Below, in pieces: positions 999-59,109 of a stretch of DNA of 64,000 nt. The stretch is from Naegleria gruberi (Eukaryota). A model generated the notes under the pieces. That model was not told where the DNA came from and did no database searches. It saw only the letters and a program-made list of their open reading frames with translations. Location of the stretch: the NCBI GenBank assembly GCA_000004985.1, contig GG738857.1. One strand, 5' to 3'. The position numbers were made by a program, and so were the translations under genes. The stretch's first letter is position 1. Every line of letters starts with the position of its first letter.

Positions 999-1080
999 AT
1001 TCATTTATTCTTATTTAGTTTAATTTAGTTTTAATTAAATAGAATGGACATGTCTTTGAAAAAGCAAACTCTAGAGCTCA

Positions 1081-11981: not shown

Positions 11982-12235
11982 ATATATTGTAATAAATACA
12001 AACATGCATTATTGATATTTAAAATCGATATTGAGATGACATTTAAAGTAAACTAATTTGGTCAATATTAATCAAAATTATGTCATAATTGTAAAAATAG
12101 AATTTTCTTCGAAACGTTCCTTTCAACAAAAAACAAAAGCCTGCAAACAACCACTGTCATTATTTCTTGTGAATACCATTGATGCTAGCTTTCGTACACA
12201 TTCCTTTTCGGTGAATTAGAAACTATCTTTAAAAA

Positions 12236-13747: not shown

Positions 13748-14000
13748 TTTTTTTTAATTTGGATTTTTCAAATATTTTTTAAAACGTAACGGTTATGAGC
13801 GGGAATAAAATTGTAAATGAAGATTAACACATTGAGTTTGACTTAATGAATCAATATCACCTGCTTACTCAACTGCCACTCAACTCAATTGCTACAAAAC
13901 AGGTTCAAAGAAAAAAAGTTGAGCGGGATAAGAAGGGAAATCAAGTTGGGCTAAATTTCGAATAGTTGTTTGTAGAACTTACATTTTGTGTGTTGGGAGT

Positions 14001-16516
14001 TTATTGTTTGAGTTTTCTATTTTCCTCTTCCAATATTTTAATTCTTTCTAACAGGTTGCTATTTTCCATGGTGTTTTCATCCAAAAGTTTATATAGGTTG
14101 GTGTTTTCCTCTGCGAGTTTGGTATTTTCATCCGAAAGTTTATCAACTTCCTCTGCAAGTTGAGAGTAACTTCTTAATGGTGATATTTTCTTCAATTCTC
14201 CAACTTGTTTTTCAATATTCAAAGTGATATCTTTGATTTCACCTTTCAAGTATTTCAAAATATTCTCAATGGTTAACTTGTGAGAATAACAATTCAATCT
14301 TTTTGATGAATCTCTTTGAATCATGCTAATAATGCTTCTAATCAATATATTATTCACTCCTAAATCTGGATTAATTGATTGATTGATTAGTTTTTCAATT
14401 GCATAATGTAATTTCATTTCTCCCTCTGTTGTTGTCACAACTGTATAGAAATATTTTCCATGTCCACTTAAATATGGATACTTGTCATTATATTTAGAGA
14501 CATCTGGATCATTAACAAATGTTGAACATAGTTGCAGAGGACAATTTGCTAATAATTTCAATAAAATACATCCCAATGAAAATATATCACATGAAATGGT
14601 AATTTGTCCAACATTGTGAGCAAGCTTTTCATCATTATCACTTTTCAATAAATCATCAGAATAATTATCATGTGAAACTTCAGGAGACATGTAGGCAAAC
14701 TTTCCACGAGCAATTGTAATTGAATTACCTGTCTTGATAACTCTTGATGTTTCAAAATCAATTATCTTGTATAAATCTTGAACTTTGACAATATTTTGAG
14801 GATCTAAATCTCTGTGTAAAATATTGTGATCATGAATTGATTGAACTGAGTTCAATACTTTGATAAATATATCAAGAATTTCAATCAACTTTTCCTTAAT
14901 AATGAATCCATTTCTATAAATTCCATCTTGATTATTTCTTGAAATATAATTTGATAATGATTCCTCTCCAAGTTCCATCACTGTATACAAATGATTTTGA
15001 ATAATGTCACAATCAAAACATTTGATCTTTCCTTCAATGTCTGTTCTTTTCAATAAATTAATGGTTTCTTTTGTTGATTCTTCAGATTCCTCTGGGTCAT
15101 ATTTTAATTTTAATGCCCTTAATGATTTACTACTTTTGTGAAATACTTTGAATGCAACACCTTCACCTCCATATCCTAATACTGAAATGAAATCATAATT
15201 ATATTTGAAATAATTATAGAAATAATTGAGAGCTTTGAATACTTTTGATAAATCTCCTCTCAGCTCATTATATTTACAAATTATTTGTTTGTAATTTACA
15301 AATGTTTTCTCATTTTCAAACCACTTGTTGGCAAAATTCATAATTTCATTAATTTCCTGTTTTGAATAAAATGATGTTTCGAAATTTGTTGCAACTTGTT
15401 CCACAATATTCTTCAAATCTTTCATTCTTGTTGATTGACAGGGATTATCTTCAATAAATTTGTCCAATCTGAAACAAAATAAATAATAGTTAGCTCTTTC
15501 TGAAAGAACATTTTCAGTGGATAATTCTGAATGGTTCATTTGTTTCAATATTTGAAAAAAAATCAACTTTTCAACAAATATTGGTGTGTAGATAGGATTA
15601 AAATTGAATATTGTACTTTTTGGTGTTGGATTAAAGAGACTTGTTAATTCAATACCATAATATAAATCCTTTTCATCCATAAATATTTTGGAGTATTGTT
15701 CAATTATATTGCTTGACAGCTTTGTCTGAAGATTAATGGATTCTTCAATGGTTTTGGTTATAGAGGGTGAGAACCTTCTTGCATTTTCCTTGTTCAATTT
15801 AATTAATAAATAAATAAATATACTATCTTTTTTAAATGATTCATCAGCATGCTTAAGTGCCAATCCAGCTTGTTTAACAGATTCCAATATAAATTCTCTA
15901 TCTTTTTTCAATGATGAATCAGCATATTCAAGTGCATATCCATCTTGTTTGACAGACTCCAATACAATTTCTCTATCTTTTTTAAATGATGAATCAGCAA
16001 ATTCAAGTGCCAATCCATCTTGTTTGACAGATTCCAATACAATTTCTCTATCTTTTTTAATATTGAATCAGCAAATTCAAGTGCCAATCCATGTTGTTTA
16101 ACAGATTCCAATATAAATTCTCTATCCTTTTTCAATGATGAATCAGCATATTTGAGTGCTGGTCCATAGCGTATAACAGCTTCCAATATAATTTCTCTAT
16201 CTTTTTCCAATGATGAATCAACATATAAAAGTGTCAATCCATTTTGTTTAATAGCTTCCAACACAATTTCTCTATCTTTTTTAAATGCTGGATCAGCATA
16301 TTGAAGTGCCAACCCATTTTGTTTAACAGCTTCCAATACAATTTCTCTATCTTTTTTCAATGATGAATCAGCATTTTCAAGTGTTGATCCATTTTGTTTA
16401 ACAGCTTTCAACACATATTTCCTATCGGCCTATTGTTGCAATCATGAATCATCACACCAATAAAAATAATTATTTTCTCCACAGCAACAAATACCAACCC
16501 ACTCGTTTTTGTTCAT
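14001..16516 (-). pseudogene. Copy A of the DUF4116-repeat/atypical-kinase gene. Only ~8 repeats, and a 1-bp deletion near 16050-16055 shifts the frame (ORFs 14001..16037 and 15908..16414).
   Basis: The kinase domain and C-terminal coiled coil are about 95% identical to copy B. The repeat frame is broken where ttttttaa-tattgaatcagc replaces the unit sequence ttttttaaatgatgaatcagc. The conserved 5' block containing ATGAACAAAAACGAGTGG is present at 16516..16499. It could be a sequencing error in a repeat instead of true pseudogenisation. Confidence 0.55.
15790..16414 (-). repeat. Tandem 75-bp coding repeats (25-aa DUF4116-like units), ~8 copies, copy A.
   Basis: A 75-bp period (ttgtttaacagcttccaata(c/t)aatttctctatcttttttaaatgatgaatcagcatattcaagtgccaatcca...) encoding AVKQNGLALEYADSSFKKDREIVLE. 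Confidence 0.8.
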
Positions 16517-17598
16517 TTTTTTAAAGGTATTCTAGACCATCACATTCCGAATCAACTTGATGATTTTTACACCCAAAAAGAACAGTTTCAACTATTACAG
16601 ATGGGTTTTTTTGTTATTGGACGCCATCACATGATCTGTTAAGATTTGCATCCTCTTCTTGTTGATCCATTATGAATTGCTCCTCATCATCTGATTCCGA
16701 GGATCAGAACCAAGCTCTCTCAATCAAATCATCCACCATTAAATCTTGCTCATCTACTTCTGAATTCAACTTCTTAGTCACTCCTTGTTGTGTTTGATAA
16801 GGAATTTATTGCCTAATTTTTGATATATATTTTCAAATGTATGGAGTGTTCCTTTGTGTTGGTGTTTTCTCTATTTTTTTAGGCTTTGAAATAAGGCGCT
16901 AAGATCCACTCATTGATACTGATGAACCATGATCTCAATGAGGTCGAGGAAGATGGATCGAAGAAGAAGCCTATTGATGAATCATCACATAATTGGCATC
17001 ATGATGAAAATAGCAGTCTGGTTGACAGCTGTGTATGTGTAAATAACATCATTATTACTATTCATCTAGCGTTTACTCAATTCATATTCATTCTTATCAT
17101 GTGATTACATAGCTTATTAACCATTACGAACCGTGTGGTCCCATTCTTGCTCTGAATATAAAATTAAAAACCGATCAAAGTTGGTGGCAAGAATGAAAAA
17201 TTTACAAAATCGATCACAAATAAAATAAAATTCAAGTTTTGGTCACCAAAACGACCAAAACGCAGACCAAACAAGTTATTCAAGTTATTGTTGCTTTGAT
17301 TTTTAAATAATATATTTGATAAAATAAAAAGAATAAAAACGGAGCGCGGGAATAAAATTGTAGATGAAGCTTAACATATTGTAAATTTATTGTAAAGTAA
17401 TCTTTTTATGGTTGCATACTTTAATAACAAGCATCATGAATTGCTAGGCAACTCAAGAGTCACTTTAGGGTTGTAATATTTGGTATTGTTGCTGTGTTAC
17501 TATTATCTTTTTTAGAATGCATCCTTTTTTGTCATTTCCATTTCAGTCTTTGTGAAGAAACCTTTCGAATAGAGAAATTGCAAACAAAGAAACAAAAA

Positions 17599-18726
17599 AT
17601 GGGTGGAAAGCTCTCTTCGAATCACAATCATCATCAACACTCCAACAACACTCCACTTCTGCAACAAACTAAACATTCGAATAACAATGACAATCATCAG
17701 AGAATAGTTTTACTGGGAAATACTTCAAGTGGAAAGTCAACTATTTGTGAAATGATTCAATATCAGAAACAACATCAAGCAGATAAATCATGCAATACTT
17801 ACAACCTATTCTATAAGGTAGATTCGAATACAATTTCAAAAACTATTATTGAACAGATATTGTTTGCATCAAAGGATATATCTATTGAGGCAATTATTCG
17901 AGAATATACAAATGATTGCAATAATTTTGATAATTCTACACTTTTTGCATTGTGGAATGATCAGAAATTTAGAAATATTTATCAGAGCTGTCAAGATTCT
18001 CTCAATTTATTCGAAAATGTTGACATTTTTGTAAGGAAACTTAAGAATCATGAAAGTTTCATTCCAGATATTTACATTAAGGGAAATTCTTCTGGAATTA
18101 CAGAGTATGACATTAATTTTGATGACAAGAAAGTGACATTTGTGACTGCAGGTGGAAAAACAAGTGAAAGAAAAAAGTGGAATTTCTGCTTGCAAGGAAA
18201 TGTTTCCGTTTTGGTTTATGTTGTTTCGTTGGCAGAATTCAATCAATCAGGTTATGGAGATGAGAAGGTGAATAGAATGGACGAAAGTTTGAAACTTTAC
18301 AAGGAATTGATGACTCGTGTTTCGAATAGTGGTAATAATACGAGAGTTGTCTTACTGTTTACCAAACCAGATATAATGATGAGGAAACTGAGGAGTTACA
18401 TTGAATTTGGAAGATTATTCGAAACTGAAACACTTACTGATCTTTCACGAATTGTAAACGATTATCACGAAAGGGATGTTCTCAATACAATTATATCGAG
18501 TTTTTTAACCGAAACAAATAATATTTATGGGAAAATACCAGAATATCACATTATTCAGTCGATATCAGAATTGGACATTTCACAACTCGCCAAACTAATG
18601 TTGAATAATGAGAAAAATAGACATTATATTTCTAATTGCTTGTTTGAGAAAATATCGCTTGTGAGATGTTATCAATTAGTGATGGCTCAACAATTGACCG
18701 ATTTAACAATTAAGTGTCAATTATAA
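17599..18726 (+). CDS. Divergent heterotrimeric G-protein alpha-subunit-like protein (376 aa) with substitutions at catalytic positions.
   Basis: ATG at 17599 gives MGGKLSS, the consensus for N-myristoylation and S6. G1 is LLGNTSSGKSTICEMI, compared with the canonical LLLGAGESGKST. The switch II region reads FVTAGGKTSERKKWNFCLQGNVSVLVYVVSLAEF, compared with the canonical [32 protein letters not shown]. G4 reads LLFTKPD, compared with the canonical FLNKKD. The ORF-track start at 17494 is a TTG. The catalytic Gln of DVGGQ is Lys (TAGGK), and switch I (IKGNSSGITEY) lacks the RxxTxGI arginine. Convergent with kinase copy B across a 231-bp spacer. Confidence 0.65.
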   Translation: MGGKLSSNHNHHQHSNNTPLLQQTKHSNNNDNHQRIVLLGNTSSGKSTICEMIQYQKQHQADKSCNTYNLFYKVDSNTISKTIIEQILFASKDISIEAIIREYTNDCNNFDNSTLFALWNDQKFRNIYQSCQDSLNLFENVDIFVRKLKNHESFIPDIYIKGNSSGITEYDINFDDKKVTFVTAGGKTSERKKWNFCLQGNVSVLVYVVSLAEFNQSGYGDEKVNRMDESLKLYKELMTRVSNSGNNTRVVLLFTKPDIMMRKLRSYIEFGRLFETETLTDLSRIVNDYHERDVLNTIISSFLTETNNIYGKIPEYHIIQSISELDISQLAKLMLNNEKNRHYISNCLFEKISLVRCYQLVMAQQLTDLTIKCQL

Positions 18727-18957
18727 AGTTTAAGGATGAAGTTATGGTTTTCTGTAAAATAAAGTGCATCTAAAATGAGTTTTACTGGGTCTGTATAAGT
18801 TCCTTTCCTTTGAAGATCCATTTGGAGTGAGAATTGATTTATTTCTTGTGTATCATGTCAATGACATTTTGCTGCACAATTTTGATACTTATTTTCAATA
18901 TGAAGTCGCAAATTTCATTGCTAATACAAAGTATAATCTATCAACCAGGTTTGGTGT

Positions 18958-21900
18958 TTAATTTTGTTTGAGTTTTCTATTTTCCTCTTCTAATACTTTA
19001 ATTCTTTCTAATAGGTTGGTATTTTCCTCTACAAGTTGAGAGTAGCTCCTTAATGGTGAGATTTTCTTCAATTCTCCAACTTGTTTTTCAATATTGAAAG
19101 TGATATCTTTGATTTCACCTTTCAAAAATTTCAAAATATTCTTAATTGTTAACTTGTGAGAATAACAATTCAATCTTTTTGATGAATCTCTTTGAATCAT
19201 GCTAATAATGCTTCTAATCAATATGTTATTCACTCCTAAATCTGCATTAATCGTTTCATTGATTAGTTTTTCAATTGCATAATGTAATTTCATTTCTCCC
19301 TCTGTTGTTGTCACAACTGTATAGAAATATTTTCCATGTCCACTAAAATATGGATACTTGTCATTATATTTAGAGACATCTGGATCATTAACAAATCTTT
19401 CACACAATTGCAAAGGACAATTGGTTAATAATTTCAACAAAATGCATCCCAATGAAAATATATCACATGAAATGGTAATTTGTCCAACATTGTGAGCAAG
19501 TTTTTCATTGTCATCACTTTTCAATAAATCATCAGAATAATTATCATGTGAAACTTCAGGAGACATGTATGCAAACTTTCCACGAGCAATTGTAATTGAA
19601 TTACCTGTCTTGATAACTCTTGATGTTTCAAAATCAATAATTTTGTAATGATCTTGAACTTTGACAATATTTTGAGGATCTAAATCTCTGTGTAAAATAT
19701 TGTGATCATGAATTGATTGAACAGAGTTCAATACTTTGATAAATATTTCAAGAATTTCAATCAACTTTTCCTTATTAATGAATCCATTTCTATAAATTCC
19801 ATCTTGATTATTTCTTGAAATATAATTTGATAATGATTCCTCTCCAAGTTCCATCACTGAATATAAATGATTTTGAATAATTTCACAATCAAAACATTTG
19901 ATCTTTCCTTCAATGTCTGTTCTGTTCAATAAATTAATGGTTTCTTTTGTTGATTCTTCAGATTCCTCTGGATTATATTTTAATTTTAATGCCCTTAATG
20001 ATTTACTACTTTTGTGAAATACTTTGAATGCAACACCTTCACCTCCATATCCTAATACTGAAATGAAATCATAATTATATTTGAAATAATTATAGAAATA
20101 ATTGAGAGCTTTGAATACTTTTGATAAATCTCCTCTCAGCTCATTATATTTACAAATTATTTGTTTGTAATTATCAAATGTTTTCTCATTTTCAAACCAC
20201 TTGTTGGCAAAAATCATAATTTCATTAATTTCCTGTTTTGTATAAAATGACGTTTCAAAGTTTGTTGCAACTTGTTCCACAATATTCTTCAAATCTTTCA
20301 TTCTTGTTGATTGAGAAGGATTATCTTCAAGAAATTTATCCAATCTGAAACAAAATAAATAATAGTTAGCTTTGGTGCTTTGTAAATCAATTAGAGCAAT
20401 AATATCATTAGACAATTCTGAATGGTTCATTCGTTTCAATATTTGAAAAATAATCAATTTTTCAACAAATATTGGTGTGTAGATAGGATTAAAATTGAAT
20501 ATTGTACTTTTTGGTGTTGGATTAAAGAGACTTGTTAATTCAATAGCATAATATAAATCTTTTTCATCCATAAATATTTTGGAGTATTGTTCAATTATAT
20601 TGCTTGACAGCTTTTTCTGAATATTTAAGCATTCTTCAATGGTTTTGGATATAGAAGGTGAGAACTTTCTTGCATTTTCTTTGTTCAATTTAAATAGCAA
20701 ATAAATAAATTCTCTATCTTTTTTAAATGATGAATCAGCGTATTCAAGTGCTCGTACATTTTGTTTAACAGCTTCCAATACAATTTCTCTATCTTTTTTC
20801 AATAATGAATCAGCATATTTAAGTGCATATCCATCTTGTTTGACAGTTTCCAATATAAATTCTCTATCTTTTTTAAATGATGAATCAGCGTATTCAAGTG
20901 CTCGTACATTTTGTTTAACAGCTTCCAATACAATTTCTCTATCTTTTTTCAATAATGAATCAGCATATTCAAGTGTCAATCCATTTTGTTTAACAGTTTC
21001 CAATATAATTTCTCTATCTTTTTTAAATGATGAATCAGCATATTCAAGTGCCAATCCATTTTGTTTAACAGCTTCCAATATAATTTCTCTATCTTTTTTC
21101 AATAATGAATCAGCATATTCAAGTGCCAATCCATTTTGTTTGACAGCTTCCAATATAAATTCTCTATCTTTTTTAAATGATGAATCAGCATATTGAAGTG
21201 CTCGTACATTTTGTTTAACAGCTTCCAATATAATTTCTCTATCTTTTTTCAATGATGAATCAGCATATTGAAGTGCTCGTCCATTTTGTTTAACAGCTTC
21301 CAATATAAATTCTCTATCTTTTAGAAATGATGAATCAGCATATTTAAGTGCATACCCATCTTGTTTAACAGCTTCCAATATAAATTCTCTATCTTTTTTA
21401 AATGATGAATCAGCATATTTAAGTGCATATTCATTTTGTTTAACAGATTCCAATATAATTTCTCTATCTTTTTTAAATGATGAATCAGCATATTTAAGTG
21501 CCAATCCATTTTGTTTAACAGCTTCCAATATAATTTCTCTATCTTTTTTCAATATTGAATCAGCGTATTCAAGTGCCCACCCATTTTGTTTAACAGCTTC
21601 CAATATAAATTCTCTATCTTTTTTAAATGATGAATCAGCATATTGAAGTGCCAATCCATTTTGTTTAACAGCTTCCAATATAATTTCTCTATCTTTTTTA
21701 AATGATGAATCAGCATATTCAAGTGCCAATCCATGTTGTTTAACAGCTTCCAATACAATTTCTCTATCTTTTTTAAATGATGAATCAGCGTATTCAAGTG
21801 CATATCCATTTTGTTTAACAGCTTCCAATATAATTTCTCTATCTTTTTTCAATAATGAATCAGCGTATTCAAGTGCTGGTCCATAGCGTTTAACAGCTTC

Positions 21901-22533
21901 CAATACAATTTCTCTATCTTTTTTAAATGATGAATCAGCATATTGAAGTGCCCACCCATTTTGTTTAACAGCTTCCAATACAATTTCTCTATCCTTTTTA
22001 AATGATGAATCAGCATCTTCAAGTGCCGATCCATTTTGTTTAACAGCTTCCAATATAATTTCTCTATCTTTTTTAAATGATGAATCAGCAAATTCAAGTG
22101 CCAATCCATTTTGTTTAACAGCTTCCAATATAATTTCTCTATCTTTTTTAAATGATGAATCAGCGTATTGAAGTGCCAATCCATAGTGTTTAACAGCTTC
22201 CAATATAATTTCTCTATCTTTTTTCAATAATGAATCAGCGTATTCAAGTGCTGGTCCATAGCGTTTAACAGCTTCCAATACAATTTCTCTATCTTTTTTA
22301 AATGATGAATCAGCATATTGAAGTGCCCACCCATTTTGTTTAACAGCTTCCAATACAATTTCTCTATCCTTTTTAAATGATGAATCAGCATCTTCAAGTG
22401 CCGATCCATCTTGTTTAACAGCTTCCAACACATATTTCCTATCGGCCTATTGTTGTGATCATGATCATCACATTTTATATAATAATTATTTCACCACACA
22501 GCAACAAATACCAACCCACTCGTTTATGTTCAT
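18958..22533 (-). CDS. Copy B (intact) of the DUF4116-like repeat / atypical protein kinase / coiled-coil gene. Main exon 18958..22456 (~1166 aa), plus a proposed 18-nt 5' exon at 22516..22533.
   Basis: A single 3.5 kb ORF carries ~23 repeats of (E)AVKQNGxALEYADSSFKKDREIILE and a helical linker. The kinase domain has glycine loop LGYGGEGVAF, beta3 RALKLK, HRDLDPQN, DFETSR, YMSPE and DIFSLGCIL. The C-terminus LVEENTNLLERIKVLEEENRKLKQN is a coiled coil. A TAG stop sits immediately upstream in the repeat frame, and there is no in-frame ATG in 1.7 kb of repeats. A conserved ATG at 22533 is proposed to splice in across a 59-nt intron (GTTGGT...caacaatag). Confidence 0.75.
20690..22456 (-). repeat. 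Tandem 75-bp coding repeat array (~23 units, DUF4116-like), copy B.
   Basis: A perfect 75-bp periodicity, with mostly synonymous variation and a few replacement changes (N/D/H/Y, L/W/R, E/Q/K) between units. Both the repeat frame and the +1 frame of the same strand are open over long stretches. Confidence 0.85.
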
Positions 22534-24106: not shown

Positions 24107-24971
24107 TCAGGAAGAAAGAGTCAAATCTTTATCACCATATAAAATAAGATCAATGGTTGTTTCCTCAAACATTGTGCTTCTTTGAAGAATTGAAATATCG
24201 CCATCAATTCTTTCACGTTGATTGATGAATCTATTTCGAACTTGCCTACGACGATAGTTTTTGAGGAGTGGATTGCAAATCCTTCCAGAGAGGCATCTGA
24301 ATTGATTATTATTGACTCTGGAGCGTCGAGCTCTAACCAAGAGCCTTCGGATTATTGGATAATTTTTCGTTATACCCTCAGATCTTTGGCAGGGCCTCGA
24401 TTCACTAGTATAGTTGAATTCCATCCTTTTGAATCTTGTAAACAAGAAAGGAAGTTCACAAAGGAAACAACACACTGTATCATCTCCATCTCATCCTAAA
24501 TAAAGAGTGGACACACCACTTCCTCCCAAAAACTGTTGCGCTCATTAATCTTTGGTAAGGGATTAATTTCTGAGTGAGGTTTTTCATCAATGTTTTTTTC
24601 TTATCCATGTTTTGAAGATCCAACTATTGATAACTTTTTTTTTACATCCTTCAAAGCAGGTTCCAGGCTGTTTCACCATTAAGGTGGTTCAGCCCCCGAG
24701 CTTTAATACCCAATTGTCTAAATATTATATGAACTGTATTTTGTGCGTTTACTATCGAAACATGCCATCGTTTATCTTTCCAAGATAAACCTGTATTCGT
24801 CTTTGGGACAACGTTGATAGGATTTAAAGAATAGGTTATAATTTGGTTTTGTAACATAGAGTCTATCTCTCTCCTTATCCATGTTTTCTCTTTCTGAGAG
24901 AACTTCTGTAGCCGTAAAGATGTTTCCTCTGTCTTTCCAGGAAAGAGTATCGCTGAAAAATGTTGATTCAT
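24107..24971 (-). mobile_element. Degenerate reverse-transcriptase fragment of a retrotransposon, with multiple frame breaks.
   Basis: ORF 24651..24971(-) contains ...QNQIITYSLNPINVVPKTNTGLSWKDKRWHVSIVNAQNT, the RT domain 1-2 signature (pS.Sp...PvvlVpKkdG.wR.cvDyR.LN). ORF 24107..24475(-) contains FNYTSESRPCQ...(F.Y..PFG-like) then DLILYGDKDL (YxDD-like), in the correct N-to-C order but in different frames. Confidence 0.4.
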
Positions 24972-26279
24972 CCTTATTTGAGTTGTTTTATTACCATAAT
25001 GGCAAAGGTTACTGTATGTGAAGAATCCACCTTAATTTGTAATTTTTTGTTCTGAAGCAGCAAACCAATGACGGAAAATAATATTAGGAAAAGACATCAT
25101 GTTTACTATTTTATTTGATGAAATCAAGTGGAGAATACATAAAACAGATGTTGCTACAAGAAAACACAATGTTAATAATAAAAATATAATTAATTATTGA
25201 AATAATTCAAGGAACTGGCTTTCCATCATGCATAATCTTTACGTAATTGCTCAGCAAAGAGCTTGGAAATTGTTTCACCAATCTTTCCCTTTTCTTGATT
25301 GATATATCTCAACAATAATTCAAGGTGGAAAATCAGCAAGATTTCCAACCTTGAAATTTACCTTGTTGGAAAATTTACCATTAGTGAATTTTATTTATGG
25401 TGCAATGATGATGACCATTAAGATATTTTCCTTAATGATCGGAAGTGAACTTGTTGATGATATTGATGATAAAAGATATGATGAAGCGAAAATTCCACAA
25501 CTCGATGAATACTAAGTGGAAAAATTCCAACTCTCTTGATGGTGATATTAGACATCCCTACTAATGATACTATGTTGTTGAAATTGATGATGATTCACCA
25601 ACTTGAATTTGTCCAATATCAAAATTACTATCTAATTCCATAACGATAAACTTCCACATAAAACTACTATTATTACTATTATATTGATGATGTATAGATG
25701 ATGAGGTTCCATTCTTGGAGTGGGAAGTTGAAGAACCACTCCGAAAATAAGCTACTCATAAAATTGATATTTTTTTTTGAATGCAAGATACGTCTTGGTT
25801 GAGTTTACTATTCTTTCGATGTCTTTGAGGCTCAAAACTGTGCAATTGGCTTCAGACTCAATATTAAGGAAGTATTGCTTCCATTTTTATTTTGCTTACT
25901 GGATTTTCCAGGAAAGATTTCTCTTAATATTGATAGACGTGGTACTGATAATTTTATAACTGTTAATGGTTTTGGTCCAAAATATGTCAGTAGTGGTACT
26001 GTTATTGCACGAGATAATTCTAAAGGTTATGAAATTTTTAATGCAAATAGAATTTATGATTTATTGTAAATACAAAATGAAGAAAATCAATAAAACTATT
26101 AAATAAATATTTTGTGAAATTGTTATGGCTGATGAAACACTTCTAGTAGTAGTACTTCCATATCTATTAATTGAATTGTTTACGGGAGGAAAAAAAAAAC
26201 TACTTTCATCAAAATTAACGCCTCCAGATGTGCATCCACAGCGCTGGCTATAACAAGAAAATGGACTTGTTGTACAATA

Positions 26280-26825
26280 CTACTCTTGTTGTGTAGAATA
26301 TTTTTGGAACTTTGGTTTGATAGTAATTGTCAAAGGATAATACTCATCAGGAATAGTAGAATTGTCTACCAATCCGAATCCGGTATGCATTATCGCAAAG
26401 AACTTTGAACATCCACAAATACTCTGAACAGCATCAGCATAAGGGTACAAACTGAAAGATGTACCAGGATTAATACATTGATTGTCTGTGTATCTGTAGC
26501 GAACACGATCTGCAAAGAAAATATTTTGAATATCTGTTCTAATTGAAGAATTTCCTCTGTAATAAGGTTTGTCAAGTGAAACATCAAAAGTATAAATTTT
26601 ACATCCTACTGATGAATCCACAAATTTTTTGACTCCATCAAGTTTTAAACTAAAAGGTGTAGTGTAACTTCTATTGGGAATAATAATAGTAATTGGGTTA
26701 TCACCAGAAATCTCTATTACAGAATCTGTTGGAAGATCTTTAACATTGATCAACACATTCGCACAACTCACACATACAAACAATAGCAAGAGCAATAAAA
26801 GAGTGTTAAGAAGACTTCTAGGCAT
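26280..26825 (-). CDS. Small secreted Cys-containing protein (181 aa), hypothetical.
   Basis: ATG at 26825. The N-terminus MPRSLLNTLLLLLLLFVCVSCANV is a signal peptide. The ORF is clean. It is flanked by retroelement debris on both sides, so it could be a host gene or element-derived. Confidence 0.4.
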   Translation of the reverse strand: MPRSLLNTLLLLLLLFVCVSCANVLINVKDLPTDSVIEISGDNPITIIIPNRSYTTPFSLKLDGVKKFVDSSVGCKIYTFDVSLDKPYYRGNSSIRTDIQNIFFADRVRYRYTDNQCINPGTSFSLYPYADAVQSICGCSKFFAIMHTGFGLVDNSTIPDEYYPLTITIKPKFQKYSTQQE

Positions 26826-27508
26826 TGTTTTCTTGTTTGTTGACTCATCTCAATTTGCCACCGCAACTAAATAGAATTGCAAAGAAGAAATGGGTGACCT
26901 TTCATGTCCACTTAAACAAAAAAGATCAATAAAAATGATCCCAAAACGATTATTATAACATATCAGGTAGTTAAATCCAAAGTGAAAGGACGTCCATACA
27001 GTCAAATGATCCACAAACATGTCAATCCCCATTGATTCTGTGTCACCCACATAAAATAATATTCGTAATTAATAATTTGTATATTTGGGTCTATTTGTCA
27101 GATATTTGAGTACCTCTTTTTGAGTTATTGTATTGTTGTCAAGCTTTGTAAATTCTCATGAAAGACTCAATGATAGTAGATGTTACTGAACTATATGCTG
27201 TGGTAATGTTTTTCGCAAATTCTTTAGATACAACCTGATTTTCTGGTTTTACAGTGTAGAGACTTAAATAATCTCCAATAAAACTACACCAAACACATTT
27301 TAATGTGAAATTCATAGGAGTTGTTCCCTCAAATATATATAGGAATTATCAGATGTATAACTTTCCGAATTTGAGTGATACCAAAATTGGTACCTTATCT
27401 ATCATAGGTTGGATCTACAGTACAATATCTAGATATTCCAACTAAATCTGGTTCAGATATCTGGACCATTCAAACATAATTTTTTTCTACATTGATTTAC
27501 AATTTTGA

Positions 27509-28520
27509 TTACACTGCGCTTGGTGCACCTCTTACTAAGAAACTCTTTCCTGGAACTTCCTCTGGTGGTAGTTTTTCCATTAGCTGGAATCTGATTCCGT
27601 TTTTTATCCAATCCACAATTATTTCTGAGACGACGAATTCTGTCCAACGTTGATGGAAATGAGAGAGTCTACCACCTAGAGGAACCTGCTTGTCACTGGT
27701 GGAGGAATTGGAGTTGTTAGAACCGGATCCATGGCTATTGAATTGTCTTCTTCCATTATAAGTGGTTGGTGTTTGCTCTATTGAAATGGTCCGAGTCGTA
27801 TGGGACGAAGTGGTTAGACCTTTGATTAAATCTTCTCTTTTGAAGGTTGCTACTACTTTTCTTTGTCTCTGGGTTTTAACCAAGGTATTAACAATTCCTT
27901 TGCAGTTTCAAAACCACCAGAACCGGTTCACCCAATTTAATGGCAATACAATTTAAGTCAGCAATATTCTGGATGAATTCAATAGCTTGAAGCCATTCAA
28001 CTAAATCAAAAGAGTTACCATTTCTCAATCTTTTACAAACTTGTACAATACTTCTAAATTCTTTTCCACCATAAACATCAGGAACAGGGGCGTCAACTTC
28101 TCTGAAGAGTATTTGTAGCAAAGCCATTCTATTCTTGTGTGAAGAGAGTCTGCTGAATATTGTGCATTAGAAGTTGACAATATCAAATCAAATATATCAT
28201 CTGAAGATAACTCGTCATTAATTGACTCTCCAGTGATTGATTGATAGCAATCACGTAGATATTCCTTCAATGAAATACCTTCAGAAACCTTCACCCTTTT
28301 ACCAGTACCGAAATTGTTGTTCGAATCAGATTGTTTAAGATTAAGAATTTAGCGAGAGCAGCACACCTGAAGATACAAGACCGGAATTTTGAGAGGTTTT
28401 CAGGGTTGGCGATACGGTCTTGGCTTTGTTGATATGTAGTGGTTGAATCACCATCAGCATCTGTTGTGTCGGTAGCAGAAGATGAATCAGATGTGCTGAA
28501 TACTTCCACTCTTTGTTTAG
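27509..28520 (-). mobile_element. Degenerate retrotransposon fragment (gag-like plus pol N-terminal region), directly abutting the pseudo-G-alpha copy.
   Basis: ORF 27509..27883(-) contains PLGGRLSHFHQRWTEFVVSEIIVDWIKNGIRFQL. This is the GGRL..F..W.........I..G...F block found upstream of RT in DIRS/Ngaro-type (and some LTR) elements. Upstream ORFs 27888..28127 and 28025..28294 are Cys/His-poor gag-like reading frames broken by stops. Confidence 0.4.
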
Positions 28521-28537
28521 TCGCCTATTAAGCATAT

Positions 28538-29030
28538 CGGAATATTCACTTCTGGAATTACAGAGTATGACATTAATTTTGATGACAAGAAAGTGACATT
28601 TGTAACTGCAGCTGGAAAAACAAGTGAAAGAAAAAAGTGGAAATGTTTCCGTTTTGGCAGAATTCAATCAAACAGGTTATGGAGATGAGAAGGTGAATAG
28701 AATGGATGAAAGTTTGAAACTTTACAAGGAATTGATGACTCGTGTTTCGAATAATGGTAATAATACAAGAGTTGTCTTACTGTTTACTAAACCAGATATA
28801 ATGATGAGGAAATTGAGGAGTTACATTGAATTTGGAAGATTATTCGAAACTGAAACACTTACTGATCTTTCACGAATTGTAAACGATTATCACGAAAGGG
28901 ATGTTCTCAATACAATTATATCGAGCTATTTGAATGCAATAAATAATATTTATGGGAAAATACCAGAATATCACATTATTCAGTCGATATCAGAATTGGA
29001 CATTTCACAACTCGCCAATGTTGAATAATG
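28538..29030 (+). pseudogene. Truncated pseudo-copy of the G-alpha-like gene, homologous to 18090..18726 and lacking the N-terminal GTP-binding half.
   Basis: Sequence from ttctggaattacagagtatgacattaattttgatgacaag onward is ~95% identical to 18090-18726. It has a ~35-bp internal deletion (aatttctgcttgcaaggaaatgtttccgttttggtttatgttgtttcgttggcagaattc becomes aaatgtttccgttttggcagaattc) and a divergent C-terminus. 3'-UTR homology continues to ~29190. Upstream of 28538 the homology is replaced by retroelement-derived sequence. Confidence 0.7.
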
Positions 29031-30806
29031 AGAAAAATAGACATTATATTTCTAATTGCTTGTAATTGCTTGTTTGAGAAAATATCGCTTGTGAGATGTT
29101 ATCAATTAGTGATGGCTCAACAATTGACCGATTTAACAATTAAGTGTAAATTATAAAGTTTAAGGATGAAGTAATAGTTTTCTGCAGAATAAATTGCATC
29201 CATATTGAGTAGGACTGTATGCATCATCTGCCTCTCAACTTTGTTCACAAAATAGTTCAAAGCTGATCAACTTGGGAAATTTCCAAATGCCACGCAAAAA
29301 GATTGGATTGTTATTCTCACAAGTTAACCATTAAAAGAGAAATCGAAATGATTTATTGAACCTTTCAAGTGAAATGAACAAACTGTTCAAATTTCAATGG
29401 CCCAGTTTGAAATCAATATATTTCGCATAGTTGTTTGTGGAACTTACATTTTGTGTGTTGGGAGTTTATTGTTTGAGTTTTCTTATTTCTTCTTCCAACA
29501 TTTTAATTCTTTCTAATAGGTTGCTATTTTCCATTGAAAGGTTGGTGTTTTCCTCTGCAAGTTTGTCAACATCCTCTAATAGGTTGGTATTTTCATCCGA
29601 AAGTTTATCAACTTCCTCTGCCAGTTGAGAGTAACTTCTTAATGGTGAGATTTTCTTCAATTCTGCAATTTCCTTTTCAATATTCAAAGTGATATCTTTG
29701 ATCTCACCTTTCAAGTATTTCAAAATATTCTCAATTGTTAACTTGTGAGAATAACAATCCAATCTTTTTGATGAATCTCTTTGAATCATGCTAATAATGC
29801 TTCTAATTAATATGTTATTCACTCCTAAATCTGGATTAATTGATTCATTGATTAGTTTTTCAATTGCATAATGTAATTTCATTTCTCCCTCTGTTGTTGT
29901 TATAACTGTATAGAAATATTTTCCATGACCACTAAAATATGGATAATTATCATTATATTTCGAGACATCTGAATCATTAACAAATCTTTCACACAATTGC
30001 AAAGGACAATTGGTCAATAATTTCAATAAAATACATCCCAATGAAAATATATCACACGAAATGGTAATTTGTCCAACATTGTGAGCAAGCTTTTCATTGT
30101 CATCACTTTTCAATAAATCATCAGAATAATTATCATGTGAAACTTCAGGAGACATGTATGCAAACTTTCCACGAGCAATTGTAATTGAATTACCTGTCTT
30201 GATAACTCTTGATGTTTCAAAATCAATAATTTTGTATAGATCTTGAACTTTGACAATATTTTGAGGATCTAAATCTCTGTGTAAAATATTGTGATCATGA
30301 ATTGATTGAACTGAGTTCAATACTTTGATAAATATATCAAGAATTTCAATCAACTTTTCCTTATTAATGAATCCATTTCTATAAATTCCATCTTGATTAT
30401 TTCTATAAATATAATTTGATAATGATTCCTCTCCAAGTTCCATCACTGTATACAAATGATTTTGAATAATTTCACAATCAAAACATTTGATCTTTCCTTC
30501 AATATCTGTTCTTTTCAATAAATTAATGGTTTCTTTTGTTGATTCTTCAGATTCCTCTGGATTATATTTTAATTTTAACGCCCTTAATGATTTACTACTT
30601 TTGTGAAATACTTTGAATGCAACACCTTCACCTCCATATCCTAATACTGAAATAAAATCATAATTATATTTGAAATAATTATAGAAATAATTGAGAGCCT
30701 TGAATACTTTTGATAAATCTCCTCTCAGCTCATTATATTTACACACTATTTGTTTGTAATTATCAAATGTTTTCTCATTTTCAAACCACTTGTTGGCAAA
30801 AATCAT

Positions 30807-30856
30807 NNNNNNNNNNNNNNNNNNNNNNNNNNNNNNNNNNNNNNNNNNNNNNNNNN
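30807..30856. other. Assembly gap (50 N) inside kinase copy C. By alignment to copy B it replaces ~350 bp.
   Basis: A run of exactly 50 n. Flanks align to copy B 20200-20221 and 20570-20600. Confidence 0.95.
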
Positions 30857-30959
30857 AGCCATAAATATTTTGGAGTATTTTTCAATTATATTGCTTGACA
30901 GTTTTGTCTGAATATTTAAGCATTCTTCAATGGTTTTGGATATAGAAGGTGAGAACTTT

Positions 30960-32269
30960 CTTGCATTTTCTTTGTTCAATTTAAATAGCAAATAAATAAA
31001 TTCTCTATCTTTTTTAAATGATGAATCAACATATTTAAGTGCCAATATATCTTGTTTAACAGCTTCCGAAACAACTTCTCTATCTTTTTTAAATGATGAA
31101 TCAGCATATCTAAGTGTTGATCCATGTTGTTTAACAGTTTCCAATATAAATTCTCTATCTTTTTTCAATAATGAATCAGCATATTCAAGTGCTCGTACAT
31201 TTTGTTTAACAGCTTCCAATATAATTTCTCTATCTTTTTTAAATGATGAATCAGCATATTCAAGTGCCAATCCATTTTGTTTAACAGCTTCCAATATAAT
31301 TTCTCTATCGTTTTTAAATGATGAATCAGCATATTCAAGTGCCAACCCATTTTGTTTAACAGCTTCCAATATAAATTCTCTATCTTTTTTAAATGATGAA
31401 TCAGCATATTCAAGTGCCAATCCATTTTGTTTAACAGCTTCCAATATAATTTCTCTATCTTTTTTAAATGATGAATCAGCATATTCAAGTGCTCGTACAT
31501 TTTGTTTAACAGCTTCCAATATAATTTCTCTATCTTTTTTAAATGATAAATCAGCATATTGAAGTGCTCGTCCATGTTGCTTAACAGCTTCCAATATAAA
31601 TTCTCTATCTTTTAGAAATGATGAATCAGCATATTTAAGTGCATACCCATCTTGTTTAACAGCTTCCAATATAAATTCTCTATCTTTTTTAAATGATGAA
31701 TCAGCATATTTAAGTGCATATCCATTTTGTTTAACAGCTTCCAATATAAATTCTCTATCTTTTTTAAATGATGAATCAGCATATTTAAGTGCCAATTCAT
31801 TTTGTTTAACAGCTTCCAATATAATTTCTCTATCTTTTTTAAATGATGAATCAGCATATTCAAGTGCCCATCCATTTTGTTTAACAGCTTCCAATATAAT
31901 TTCTCTATCTTTTTTAAATGATTAATCAGCATATTCAAGTGCCCACCCATTTTGTTTAACAGCTTCCAATACAATTTCTCTATCTTTTTTAAATGATGAA
32001 TCAGCATATTGAAGTGCCCATCCATTTTGTTTAACAGCTTCCAATATAAATTCTCTATCTTTTTTAAATGATGAATCAGCATATTCAATTGCATATCCAC
32101 GTCGTTTAACGGATTCCAATACAATTTCTCTATCTTTTTTAAATGATAAATCAGCATATTCAAGTGCCAATCCATGTTGTTTAACAGCTTCCAATACAAT
32201 TTCTCTATCTTTTTTCAAAGATGAATCAGCATATTTAAGTGCATATCCATTTTGTTTAACATATTCCAA
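30960..32269 (-). repeat. Tandem 75-bp coding repeat array (DUF4116-like), copy C.
   Basis: Same 75-bp unit as 20690..22456. The +1 frame of the same strand is open for 195 and 136 codons (ORFs 31612..32199 and 31165..31575). Confidence 0.8.
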
Positions 32270-32580
32270 TACATATTTCCTATCGGCCTATTGTTGTAAT
32301 CATGAATCATCACATCAATAAAAATAATTATTTCCACCACACAGCAACAAATACCAACCCACTCGTTTTTGTTCATTTTTTTAAAGCTATTCTCGCCCAT
32401 CACATTCCGAATCAACCATCAAGATGATTTTTACCACCAAAAAAGAACAGTTTCAATTATTACAGATGGGTTTTTTTATTATTGGATAGATACGTTCTAT
32501 TTACAAGTTGAAAAAAAAATTCTCAATTTCTCTCAGTTATATGGTAGTTATATGATTACATTTCATTTCACATTAGATTA

Positions 32581-59089: not shown

Positions 59090-59109
59090 ACTAAATATTA
59101 AACTAAAGG

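What the first reader, a model, noticed from the sequence alone, without database searches (positions are those of the whole stretch)
13966..32420. Segmentally duplicated cassette of a divergent G-alpha gene and a DUF4116-repeat atypical kinase gene (three kinase copies, two G-alpha copies)
The same convergent gene pair occurs twice. G-alpha-like (+) then a 230-430-bp spacer then repeat-kinase (-) appears at 17599..22533 and, with a truncated G-alpha, at 28538..32376. A third kinase copy without a G-alpha partner is at 14001..16516. Copies share ~95% nucleotide identity including 3' UTRs and a ~150-bp 5' block, so the duplications are recent. Only copy B is intact. Co-duplication of a G-alpha-like protein with a kinase bearing ~23 N-terminal 25-aa repeats (a likely protein-interaction scaffold) suggests a dedicated signalling module, but nothing in the sequence proves an interaction. 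DUF4116-like repeats fused to a kinase is an architecture I do not recognise as characterised.
Basis: partly seen in the sequence, partly recalled or inferred. Interest (0 to 1): 0.7.

Follow-up and report, generated by a model that had tools for sequence, protein, structure and literature searches.

The report
Duplicated Naegleria repeat-kinase genes, hitchhiking G-alpha
This stretch of the Naegleria gruberi reference genome holds three young copies of a repeat-bearing protein kinase gene; one duplication dragged along part of a neighbouring, catalytically degenerate G-alpha-like gene, so the repeated "gene pair" looks like a by-product of duplication and not evidence of a dedicated signalling module.

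Summary
The window is the Naegleria gruberi NEG-M reference scaffold (573 kb). It holds three paralogous DUF4116-repeat/TTK-like kinase genes on the minus strand: A at 14001-16516, B at 18958-22533, C at 29466-32376. They are 92-96% identical in DNA and share a 69-71-nt intron after codon 6. One intact G-alpha-like gene lies at 17599-18726, and a 5'-truncated, frameshifted relic of it at 28549-29210. Pfam confirms all domain calls. Kinase B and the G-alpha-like gene match annotated "predicted proteins" exactly (XP_002679628, XP_002679518).

- Copy C's apparent deletion is a 50-N assembly gap. Its only lesion is one TAA codon.
- Copy A has a single 1-nt deletion.
- dN/dS of 0.17-0.30 shows all three kinases were under purifying selection until recently.

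The pairing rests on one duplication event whose breakpoint lay inside the G-alpha gene. At least three more near-identical kinases lie on the same scaffold, and the only annotated copies of this G-alpha ≥90% identical are B and the C relic. Related G-alpha-like genes sit on scaffolds without these kinases.

The G-alpha-like protein belongs to a conserved Naegleria-type clade that lacks the catalytic Arg and Gln and the NKxD Asn. One environmental contig places a DUF4116-only protein next to a clade member. This is a weak lead.

The parts
14001..16516 (-). Kinase copy A (NAEGRDRAFT_65328, XP_002679627). Exon 1 is 16516-16499, the intron 16498-16430, exon 2 16429-14001. It has 8 DUF4116 units (about 16429-15831). 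A 1-nt deletion leaves a 74-nt unit near 16054-15981 and shifts the frame.
   Evidence: Model P0004 is 100% identical from aa 135 to 792 and bridges the frameshift with an artificial intron.
16517..16621 (-). Conserved 5' flank of copy A, shared with C (32377-32486) and in part with B (22534-22594). It is a putative promoter/5'UTR block.
17599..18726 (+). Intact G-alpha-like gene (NAEGRDRAFT_65329, XP_002679518, D2V8Y8), 375 aa. N-terminus is MGGKLSS. The P-loop GNTSSGKS (40-47) is intact. The catalytic Arg is replaced by N163, DxxGQ by T183-A-G-G-K187, NKxD by T255-K-P-D, and TCA by QSI.
18727..18957 (.). 231-nt convergent spacer between the stop codons of G-alpha B and kinase B.
18958..22533 (-). 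Kinase copy B (NAEGRDRAFT_65330, XP_002679628, D2V8Y9), 1168 aa and intact. Exon 1 is 22533-22516, the intron 22515-22447, exon 2 22446-18958. Protein layout: residues 7-581 are 23 x 25-aa DUF4116 units, 586-~800 a family-specific helical linker, ~797-1100 the kinase domain, ~1140-1168 a coiled coil.
20722..22446 (-). 75-nt tandem array of copy B, 23 units with mean unit-to-unit identity 89.5%. It contains a 223-nt exact internal duplicate at an offset of 375 nt (5 units).
28549..29210 (+). G-alpha relic C. It contains the annotated 108-aa ORF NAEGRDRAFT_65332 (XP_002679519). It starts abruptly at the equivalent of B position 18089 and carries deletions of 17, 18 and 5 nt and a 10-nt insertion. 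It is 97.3% identical to B over 595 aligned nt.
29466..32376 (-). Kinase copy C. Exon 1 is 32376-32359, the intron 32358-32288, exon 2 runs from 32287. It has 17 DUF4116 units (32287-31013) and a premature TAA at 31924-31922. A 50-N assembly gap at 30807-30856 stands where about 300 nt of linker would be. The 3' 446 codons (30806-29466) are open. No exact gene model was found for its 446-aa ORF.
30807..30856 (.). Assembly gap (50 N) inside copy C.

Best explanation
This is a young, lineage-specific expansion of one Naegleria gruberi gene family. The family encodes TTK-like Ser/Thr kinases with an N-terminal DUF4116 alpha-solenoid array, a family-specific helical linker and a C-terminal coiled coil. 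The copies arose by local segmental duplication or unequal recombination.

At least six members, 90-96% identical, lie within about 35 gene models on one scaffold. Three of them are in this window. One duplication (B and C) had its breakpoint inside the neighbouring G-alpha-like gene. It therefore copied that gene's 3' two-thirds, and the copied piece has since decayed. The 'cassette' is a footprint of where the duplication ended, not a selected gene pair.

Within each kinase gene the 75-nt units expand and contract by unequal exchange, giving 8, 23 and 17 units.

Shown:
- copies, identities and the shared intron
- dS of about 0.13 and dN/dS of 0.17-0.30
- the lesions in A and C
- the truncation and indels of G-alpha C
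- the database identities

Inferred:
- The kinases are catalytically competent. The Gly loop, beta3 Lys, HRD Asp, Asn and DFx Asp are present, but the catalytic-loop Lys is Asp.
- The solenoid is a binding surface and the coiled coil a dimerisation element.
- The G-alpha-like protein is membrane-anchored by N-myristoylation and is GTPase-deficient. It belongs to a conserved Naegleria-type clade and is not a decaying gene.
For: Identity of the locus:
- P0004 matches copy A at 100% from aa 135 to 792.
- Exact look-ups give XP_002679518 for the G-alpha, XP_002679628 for spliced kinase B and XP_002679519 for the relic ORF. UniProt accessions run in positional order, D2V8Y5 to D2V8Z1.

Duplication:
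- Self-BLAST gives 92-96% identity.
- The 69-71-nt intron is shared at the same codon.

Selection:
- dN/dS is 0.30 for A-B, 0.17 for A-C and 0.20 for B-C, with dS 0.125-0.148.

G-alpha C is a relic:
- It begins abruptly and has four indels.
- Substitutions are 8 synonymous and 8 non-synonymous.

More paralogues without G-alpha copies:
- P0003, P0007 and P0005 lie on the same 573-kb scaffold. P0003 and P0005 are 90-93% identical to A/B/C in the kinase part, and P0007 is 89-91% identical to B and C over its kinase part.
- The 90% cluster of the G-alpha has only two members.
- Clade relatives P0070, P0075, P0122 and P0078 are on scaffolds of 507, 747, 747 and 306 kb. The kinases are on scaffolds of 573, 424, 304, 297, 238, 260 and 352 kb.

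Array dynamics:
- Units B02=B07, B03=B08 and B21=B23 are identical, and there is a 223-nt exact duplicate.

Kinase features:
- TTK/Mps1 is the best PDB match, E = 5e-13.
- Paralogue P0220 is named 'TTK family protein kinase'.
- The AF2 model shows helical hairpins with pLDDT 76-90 for the repeats.

G-alpha motifs:
- The substitutions were read from the alignment to solved G-alpha structures.
- The same substitutions are conserved in homologues at 57-63% identity.

Independent assembly support:
- ENA contig L007 is 98.5% identical to 10773-14335 and keeps the junction between the Ras gene and kinase A.
Against: - The neighbours of the out-of-window paralogues (P0003, P0007, P0005, P0220 and others) could not be inspected, because the N. 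gruberi assembly is not retrievable with these tools. Unannotated G-alpha relics there cannot be excluded.
- The G-alpha-like gene is flanked by family kinases on both sides. It is head-to-head with A and tail-to-tail with B.
- In an unrelated Logan contig (L002), a DUF4116-only protein lies directly upstream of a member of the same G-alpha-like clade. This is some independent hint of a DUF4116/G-alpha-like association.
- Copy number inside the arrays, and the C gap, are not validated by long reads.
Confidence: 0.78

Rival explanations
1. Dedicated module. The G-alpha-like protein and the DUF4116 kinase act together, for example with the solenoid binding the GTPase-dead G-alpha-like protein or the kinase phosphorylating it. 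Selection then keeps the genes adjacent, so they duplicate as a unit.
For: - G-alpha B is convergent with kinase B across only 231 nt. It shares a 1082-nt divergent intergenic region with kinase A.
- Both genes encode signalling proteins.
- L002 shows a DUF4116-repeat protein next to a clade member in another organism.
- The G-alpha-like protein is conserved despite losing its catalytic residues, which suggests a non-canonical role.
Against: - There is only one duplication event, and its breakpoint lies inside the G-alpha gene.
- The copied G-alpha decayed while kinase C stayed constrained.
- Kinase A and at least three more young paralogues have no annotated copy of this G-alpha.
- The other N. 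gruberi clade members are on kinase-free scaffolds.
- Four of five other clade loci with readable flanks have no DUF4116 or kinase neighbour: L001, L004, L005 and the N. lovaniensis locus L006.
- The L002 neighbour has no kinase domain.
Confidence: 0.1
2. Assembly artefact. The three copies, or some of them, are collapsed, expanded or haplotype-duplicated sequence in the Sanger assembly and not distinct loci.
For: - Copy C contains a 50-N gap.
- The arrays are 1.3-1.7 kb of units about 90% identical to each other, and B has a 223-nt exact internal duplicate.
- The A frameshift and the C stop codon could be sequencing errors.
Against: - The copies differ by 4-8% (dS 0.125-0.148) along their whole length. 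They have different unit numbers, different 3' ends and unique flanks.
- Substitutions are biased towards synonymous sites, as expected for real paralogues.
- An independent metagenome contig reproduces the Ras/kinase A junction at 98.5% identity.
Confidence: 0.05
3. Sub-question on gene status. Copies A and C may be functional genes whose single lesions (a 1-nt deletion; one TAA) are sequencing errors or one allele of a heterozygous polyploid, and not fixed pseudogenes.
For: - dN/dS for A-C, the two 'broken' copies, is 0.17, the lowest of the three pairs. If either copy had drifted neutrally since the split, the value would be about 0.5 or more.
- Each copy has only one lesion.
- The start codon, intron and downstream ORF are all intact.
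Against: - The lesions are in the reference sequence as deposited.
- The annotators needed an artificial intron to model A.
- No exact model exists for C's 446-aa ORF.
- No read or RNA data were available here.
Confidence: 0.4

Closest known systems
TTK/Mps1 dual-specificity protein kinases (ePK 'Other' group)
   Same: TTK is the best solved-structure match of the kinase domain, E = 5e-13 over about 215 residues. Shared features include the MEx(G) hinge motif, the HxDLxPxN catalytic loop and an insert after the activation segment. The close paralogue P0220 is named 'TTK family protein kinase' by its source.
   Different: Identity is only about 25-30%. The catalytic loop is HRDLDPQN, with Asp where Ser/Thr kinases have Lys. 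DFG is replaced by DFE. The N-terminus is a DUF4116 array plus a ~200-aa family-specific linker, not the Mps1 N-terminal module. The family has at least 12 copies in one genome. Orthology to Mps1 was not tested.
DUF4116 (PF13475) repeat proteins
   Same: The match is very strong (1052 bits, 18 stretches). AF2 predicts helix-turn-helix units stacked as a solenoid. This agrees with the published contact-based alpha-solenoid model (PMC8078820).
   Different: Here the array is fused to a kinase and is unusually long and homogeneous, with 23 units about 90% identical in DNA. No function is known for DUF4116 itself.
Heterotrimeric G-protein alpha subunits, including the Naegleria G-alpha repertoire (13 in N. 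fowleri, PMC9283941; lineage-specific diversification in N. gruberi, PMC3971589)
   Same: The Pfam G-alpha match is 155.9 bits across model positions 12-306, including the helical-domain region. The P-loop is intact, the switch II core 'GG..SERKKW' is present, and the N-terminus has an MGxxxS motif.
   Different: N163 replaces the catalytic Arg, K187 the catalytic Gln, T183 the DxxG Asp, and T255 the NKxD Asn. The TCA motif is lost. The C-terminus is divergent (HYISNCLF...LTDLTIKCQL) where the receptor-coupling helix would be. The N. fowleri G-alphas studied biochemically are canonical cycling enzymes.
GTPase-deficient G-alpha relatives such as plant extra-large G proteins (XLG). This comparison rests on my own knowledge and was not tested here.
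   Same: Both have a G-alpha fold with degenerate catalytic and nucleotide-binding motifs, are still conserved, and are presumed to signal without a normal GTPase cycle.
   Different: There is no N-terminal XLG extension. The clade is phylogenetically unrelated and restricted to Naegleria-like organisms. No binding data exist.
Tandem or segmental gene-family expansions with hitchhiking fragments of neighbouring genes (a general genome-evolution pattern)
   Same: The copies are young (dS about 0.13), a duplication boundary lies inside a neighbouring gene, the partial copy decays, and copies differ in intragenic repeat number.
   Different: Nothing is unusual, except that the family itself is uncharacterised.

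Membership tests
G-protein alpha subunit (PF00503) | Profile match above the curated threshold, spanning the Ras-like and helical-domain regions | tested here: met
   155.9 bits against a cut-off of 48.8. One stretch covers residues 22-311 and model positions 12-306 of 333. There are 307 PDB G-alpha hits.
G-protein alpha subunit (PF00503) | P-loop GxxxxGK[ST] | tested here: met
   GNTSSGKS at residues 40-47.
G-protein alpha subunit (PF00503) | Catalytic Arg in switch I and Gln in switch II (DxxGQ) | tested here: not met
   KGNSSGITE aligns to R-x-K/S-T-T-G-I, giving N163. TAGGKTSERKKW aligns to D-x-G-G-Q-R-S-E-R-K-K-W, giving T183 and K187.
G-protein alpha subunit (PF00503) | Guanine-specificity motifs NKxD and TCA | tested here: not met
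   FTKPD (254-258) and IQSIS (319-323). The [TVS]KPD variant is shared by the whole clade.
G-protein alpha subunit (PF00503) | N-terminal lipidation motif | tested here: met
   MGGKLSS fits the MGxxxS/T N-myristoylation consensus. It is conserved in P0001, P0002, P0071 and P0086. This is sequence evidence only.
G-protein alpha subunit (PF00503) | Binding of G-beta-gamma, receptor or RGS proteins; GTP binding and hydrolysis | not testable with these tools
   The AF2 model was too poor to use (pLDDT 49).
Eukaryotic protein kinase (PF00069) | Profile match above threshold with the Gly loop, beta3 Lys, catalytic Asp and Asn, and the Mg-binding Asp | tested here: met
   85.9 bits against a cut-off of 31.7. 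GYGGEG 805-810, K827 in LRALKLK, HRDLDPQN 925-932 and DFE 944-946, aligned to TTK. The fold search returns kinases only.
Eukaryotic protein kinase (PF00069) | Catalytic-loop Lys of Ser/Thr kinases (HRDLKxxN) | tested here: not met
   The residue is Asp (HRDLDPQN), invariant in all 11 family members aligned.
TTK/Mps1 kinase family | Closest similarity to TTK among characterised kinases | tested here: met
   TTK chains score E = 5e-13 and the next family, PKR, E = 2e-10. A paralogue is named TTK family by its source. The margin is small.
TTK/Mps1 kinase family | One-to-one orthology with Mps1 and a spindle-checkpoint role, with the Mps1-type N-terminal region | not tested
   No reciprocal or phylogenetic test was run. 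The N-terminus is DUF4116, and the family has at least 12 copies in N. gruberi.
DUF4116 repeat (PF13475) | Repeated profile matches and a helical solenoid | tested here: met
   1052 bits over 18 stretches. 23 units of 25 aa. AF2 shows helix pairs per unit with pLDDT 76-90.
Conserved functional gene pair (G-alpha-like + DUF4116 kinase) | The pair recurs at independently arisen loci in the same genome | tested here: not met
   The only second occurrence is the B/C duplicate. The 90% cluster of the G-alpha has two members. Other clade members are on scaffolds without family kinases. The immediate neighbours of out-of-window kinases could not be read.
Conserved functional gene pair (G-alpha-like + DUF4116 kinase) | Both partners are retained intact after duplication | tested here: not met
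   G-alpha C is truncated and frameshifted, while kinase C has dN/dS of about 0.2.
Conserved functional gene pair (G-alpha-like + DUF4116 kinase) | The pair is conserved in other species | tested here: inconclusive
   One of five other clade loci (L002) has a DUF4116-only neighbour. L001, L004, L005 and L006 have none. The contig of the closest orthologue (L003) is too short to show neighbours. The metagenome scans found nothing.
Conserved functional gene pair (G-alpha-like + DUF4116 kinase) | Co-expression or physical interaction | not testable with these tools
   No expression or interaction data were available.

The most novel reading that the evidence does not exclude
Heterolobosean amoebae may possess a conserved clade of N-myristoylated, GTPase-dead G-alpha-like proteins ([T/V/S]KPD in place of NKxD, catalytic Arg/Gln lost in the window gene and several other members, novel C-terminus). 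These proteins would work with DUF4116 solenoid proteins and not with receptors or RGS proteins. In N. gruberi the solenoid is fused to a TTK-like kinase, giving a non-canonical G-alpha-like/kinase switch. The adjacency seen in the window and in L002 would be a trace of that partnership.
Probability: 0.07. Interest if true: 0.6.

Novelty: new member of a known kind. Interest (0 to 1): 0.27.

Why it matters
The practical value is mainly corrective.
- It shows how a duplication breakpoint can mimic a 'conserved gene pair'.
- It shows that an assembly gap and two single-base lesions make two constrained kinase genes look like pseudogenes.
- It gives the true exon-intron structure of the family.

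Two things may interest protist signalling specialists. First, Naegleria carries a large, rapidly duplicating family of DUF4116-solenoid/TTK-like kinases whose repeat number changes quickly. Second, it carries a conserved G-alpha-like clade that has lost several residues needed for GTP hydrolysis or guanine recognition: all members lack the NKxD Asn, and the window gene also lacks the catalytic Arg and Gln. Both are uncharacterised. If the weak DUF4116/G-alpha-like adjacency signal held up genome-wide, it would point to a new partner class for pseudo-G-alpha proteins.

Tried and rejected
1. Alternative genetic code (TAA/TAG = Gln) as the reason for the missing ATG of copy B. Rejected: ORFs across the window are cleanly bounded under the standard code. 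A conserved 69-nt intron explains the missing ATG, and the spliced product matches XP_002679628 exactly.

2. A retroelement in 22600-28548 that might have truncated G-alpha C. I recalled a DIRS-like motif from memory, but there was no Pfam hit in the ORFs or in the three minus-strand frames. The three plus-strand frames were not scanned. The only annotated gene there is a 181-aa predicted secreted protein, D2V8Z0. Unresolved.

3. Fetching genomic context of the N. gruberi paralogues. The look-up of encoding contigs has no record for P0003, P0004, P0005 or the G-alpha. Adjacency at the other kinases had to be inferred from scaffold lengths and accession order.

4. A profile search for more G-alpha-like relatives. 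It returned only three environmental proteins and missed NCBI members that were in the query alignment, so it was uninformative. One search had the same limitation.

No confirmed relative was found.

6. AF2 model of the G-alpha-like protein. pLDDT was 49 with a 3-sequence alignment, so it was not used for fold search.

7. Fold search of the kinase model. It gave only generic kinase hits, with CDK2 on top, and adds nothing beyond the sequence result.

8. The N. gruberi genome paper is not held in the library.

9. The literature searches found no description of this kinase family.

Full report
WHERE THE WINDOW COMES FROM

The window has about 32% G+C and long ORFs bounded by standard stop codons. 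A search with the non-repeat part of kinase B returned only Naegleria gruberi proteins at high score.

Model P0004 is 100% identical to copy A from residue 135 to its end. Exact look-ups place the following on one 573,072-bp N. gruberi NEG-M scaffold:
- the G-alpha ORF (XP_002679518 / D2V8Y8 / NAEGRDRAFT_65329)
- my spliced kinase B (XP_002679628 / D2V8Y9 / NAEGRDRAFT_65330)
- the G-alpha C ORF (XP_002679519 / D2V8Z1)
- the kinase A model (XP_002679627 / D2V8Y7)
- the Ras GTPase (D2V8Y6)
- the 181-aa gene at 26280-26825 (D2V8Z0)

UniProt accessions follow map order. All of these are 'predicted proteins' from the 2010 annotation.

THE OBSERVATION

Self-BLAST confirms three kinase copies and two G-alpha segments at the stated places, with 92.0% (A/B), 93.5% (A/C) and 96.2% (B/C) identity in the non-repeat part. 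Pfam confirms DUF4116 (1052 bits), Pkinase (85.9 bits) and G-alpha (155.9 bits; 59.7 bits for the fragment).

The 5' end of copy B appeared to lack an ATG. Aligning the three 5' ends showed a conserved mini-exon (ATG AAC A[A/T]A AAC GAG TGG), a 69-71-nt GT..AG intron, and then exon 2 beginning GCC GAT AGG. The spliced product is 1168 aa with exactly 23 units of 25 aa and equals the database protein.

STATE OF THE COPIES

Copy A has 8 units and one 1-nt deletion, which leaves a 74-nt unit. The public model hides this with an artificial intron.

Copy C has 17 units and one premature TAA at 31924-31922, where the other copies have TCA. Its missing ~300 nt is an assembly gap of 50 N at 30807-30856, not a deletion. 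On both sides of the gap the frame is open.

Nei-Gojobori estimates over the linker, kinase and coiled-coil part (C only from the gap onward) give dS of 0.125-0.148. dN/dS is 0.30 (A-B), 0.17 (A-C) and 0.20 (B-C). The lowest ratio is between the two 'broken' copies. Both therefore evolved under purifying selection for nearly all the time since they split. Either the lesions are very recent, or they are allelic, or they are sequencing errors.

THE G-ALPHA COPIES

G-alpha C begins abruptly at the equivalent of B position 18089, in switch I. It carries deletions of 17, 18 and 5 nt and a 10-nt tandem insertion. It differs from B at 16 of 595 aligned sites, 8 synonymous and 8 non-synonymous. It is a dead relic.

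B/C similarity runs from this point through the kinase to about 60-110 nt upstream of the kinase ATG. One segment of about 4.5 kb was therefore duplicated, with one end inside the G-alpha gene. Copy A's similarity stops 49 nt beyond its stop codon. Its convergent neighbour is a Ras family GTPase gene. Its head-to-head neighbour, 1082 nt away, is G-alpha B.

IS THE PAIRING MORE THAN A DUPLICATION FOOTPRINT?

The family has at least 12 annotated members in N. gruberi. P0003 (D2V8X5), P0007 (D2V8Y1) and P0005 (D2V909) lie on the same scaffold, just outside the window. By accession order, six members fall within about 35 gene models. P0003 and P0005 are 90-93% identical to A, B and C in the kinase part, as close as A, B and C are to each other. 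P0007 is 89-91% identical to B and C over its kinase part.

If the G-alpha had been co-duplicated with them, copies ≥90% identical would be expected. The 90% cluster of the G-alpha contains only G-alpha B and the C relic.

A full HMMER scan of 1.84 billion representatives shows that the G-alpha belongs to a small clade. Its N. gruberi members are P0070, P0075, P0122 and P0078. They lie on scaffolds of 507, 747, 747 and 306 kb, and none of those scaffolds carries a family kinase found here.

I could not read the DNA around the out-of-window kinases, because N. gruberi is not retrievable. Unannotated relics therefore remain possible.

For relatives in other organisms:
- L001 has a P450 as neighbour.
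- L004 has a CoA-transferase.
- L005 has a histidine kinase.
- The N. lovaniensis locus L006 has no DUF4116 or kinase within 10 kb.
- L002 (Logan SRR15442450) has a 667-aa DUF4116-only protein directly upstream of the G-alpha-like gene.

One hit in five loci, with an unknown genomic density of DUF4116 genes, is a lead and not a result.

WHAT THE PROTEINS ARE

Kinase. In the AF2 model:
- The repeats fold as helix-turn-helix units at pLDDT 76-90. This is an alpha-solenoid, in line with PMC8078820.
- The ~200-aa linker is helical but low-confidence.
- The catalytic domain is reasonably confident.
- The protein ends in a long helix, and A and C carry 28 extra coiled-coil residues.

The best solved relatives are TTK/Mps1 (E = 5e-13) and then PKR. 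One paralogue is named a TTK family kinase. The Gly loop, K827, the HRD Asp, the Asn and the DFx Asp are all present. The catalytic-loop Lys is Asp in every member, and DFG is DFE. I infer an active but atypical Ser/Thr kinase.

G-alpha-like protein. The P-loop is intact and the N-terminus (MGGKLSS) is of the myristoylation type. Several defining residues are replaced:
- N163 replaces the arginine finger.
- T183 and K187 replace the Asp and Gln of DxxGQ.
- T255 replaces the NKxD Asn.
- The TCA motif is lost.
- The C-terminus is novel.

The same substitutions are kept in homologues at 57-63% identity. [T/V/S]KPD marks the whole clade. This is a conserved pseudo-G-alpha and not a decaying gene. 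Published Naegleria G-alpha work concerns canonical cycling subunits (PMC9283941). N. gruberi is known for lineage-specific G-alpha diversification (PMC3971589).

ARRAY DYNAMICS AND ASSEMBLY

Units within B average 89.5% identity, and three pairs are identical. A 223-nt exact duplicate sits at a 5-unit offset. This fits recent unequal exchange, but it is also the kind of sequence a Sanger assembly can get wrong.

Several facts argue against a gross artefact:
- The copies have unique flanks, different 3' ends and synonymous-biased differences.
- An independent ENA contig (L007) is 98.5% identical to 10773-14335 and reproduces the Ras/kinase A junction.

VERDICT

The domain calls are right. The 'dedicated module' reading is not supported. 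The locus is best seen as an ordinary, young gene-family expansion with a hitchhiking gene fragment, in a genome already known for such expansions. The uncharacterised kinase family and the pseudo-G-alpha clade are of moderate specialist interest. The DUF4116/G-alpha-like adjacency in L002 keeps a small door open.

Noticed in passing
window 1-1074 and 59037-60113: Inverted repeat of about 1.07 kb, 92-96% identical, 58 kb apart. It carries ORFs 78-998(+) and 59110-60177(-), which have no Pfam match. This is a second duplicated gene in the window, in inverted orientation.
   Followed up: partly
window 12236-13747 (+); locus L007 1-3565: A Ras family small GTPase gene (D2V8Y6, 503 aa) is the convergent neighbour of kinase A. 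A metagenome contig (ENA ERZ929261) is 98.5% identical to window 10773-14335 and keeps the same junction. A near-identical N. gruberi strain is therefore present in that sample.
   Followed up: yes
L002 4793-6796 (+) and 7402-8517 (+): In a Logan assembly (SRR15442450, organism not identified), a 667-aa protein made of about 19 DUF4116 units, with no kinase domain, lies 605 nt upstream of a G-alpha-like gene of the same [T/V/S]KPD clade. This is the only independent hint of a DUF4116/G-alpha-like association.
   Followed up: partly
window 29295-29332: A 38-nt inverted copy of kinase coding sequence (matching 29733-29770, 14268-14305 and 19142-19181) sits in the spacer between the G-alpha relic and kinase C. 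It is probably a rearrangement scar.
   Followed up: no
window 30807-30856, 49199-49248, 63867: Two 50-N assembly gaps and a single N. The first lies inside kinase C. The second overlaps the called ORF 48202-49425 (-), which has Myb-domain hits.
   Followed up: partly
window 22600-28548: The 5.9 kb between the B and C units has only short broken ORFs and no Pfam match, apart from the annotated 181-aa signal-peptide-like gene D2V8Z0 (26280-26825, -). There is an internal 140-nt inverted repeat (23299-23434 and 25586-25721, 76%). One ORF (27509-27883, -) reminded me of retroelement sequences, but nothing supports this.
   Followed up: partly
window 39740-42268 and 42316-44037 (+): NHL/teneurin-like repeats followed by an EGF-like domain, a putative transmembrane segment and a canonical protein kinase domain (185 bits). 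This is probably one receptor-like kinase gene split by an intron or a frameshift.
   Followed up: no
window 21812-22409 (B array): A 223-nt exact duplicate at an offset of 375 nt (5 units) within the B array. Units B02=B07, B03=B08 and B21=B23 are identical. This is either a very recent unit duplication or a possible mis-assembly.
   Followed up: partly
proteins P0078 (D2VVW3) and P0220 (D2VVX2): A clade G-alpha-like gene near the end of the 305,921-bp scaffold and a 'TTK family' kinase of this family near the start of the 304,373-bp scaffold are nine accessions apart. They are on different scaffolds, so no adjacency is shown. It is worth checking in a contiguous assembly.
   Followed up: no
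locus L006 1342-4233 (N. lovaniensis): Two Ras/Roc/Arf-type GTPase genes lie 6-9 kb from the N. lovaniensis G-alpha-like gene P0072. In the window a Ras-family GTPase gene also lies 4 kb from G-alpha B. This may be coincidence.
   Followed up: no
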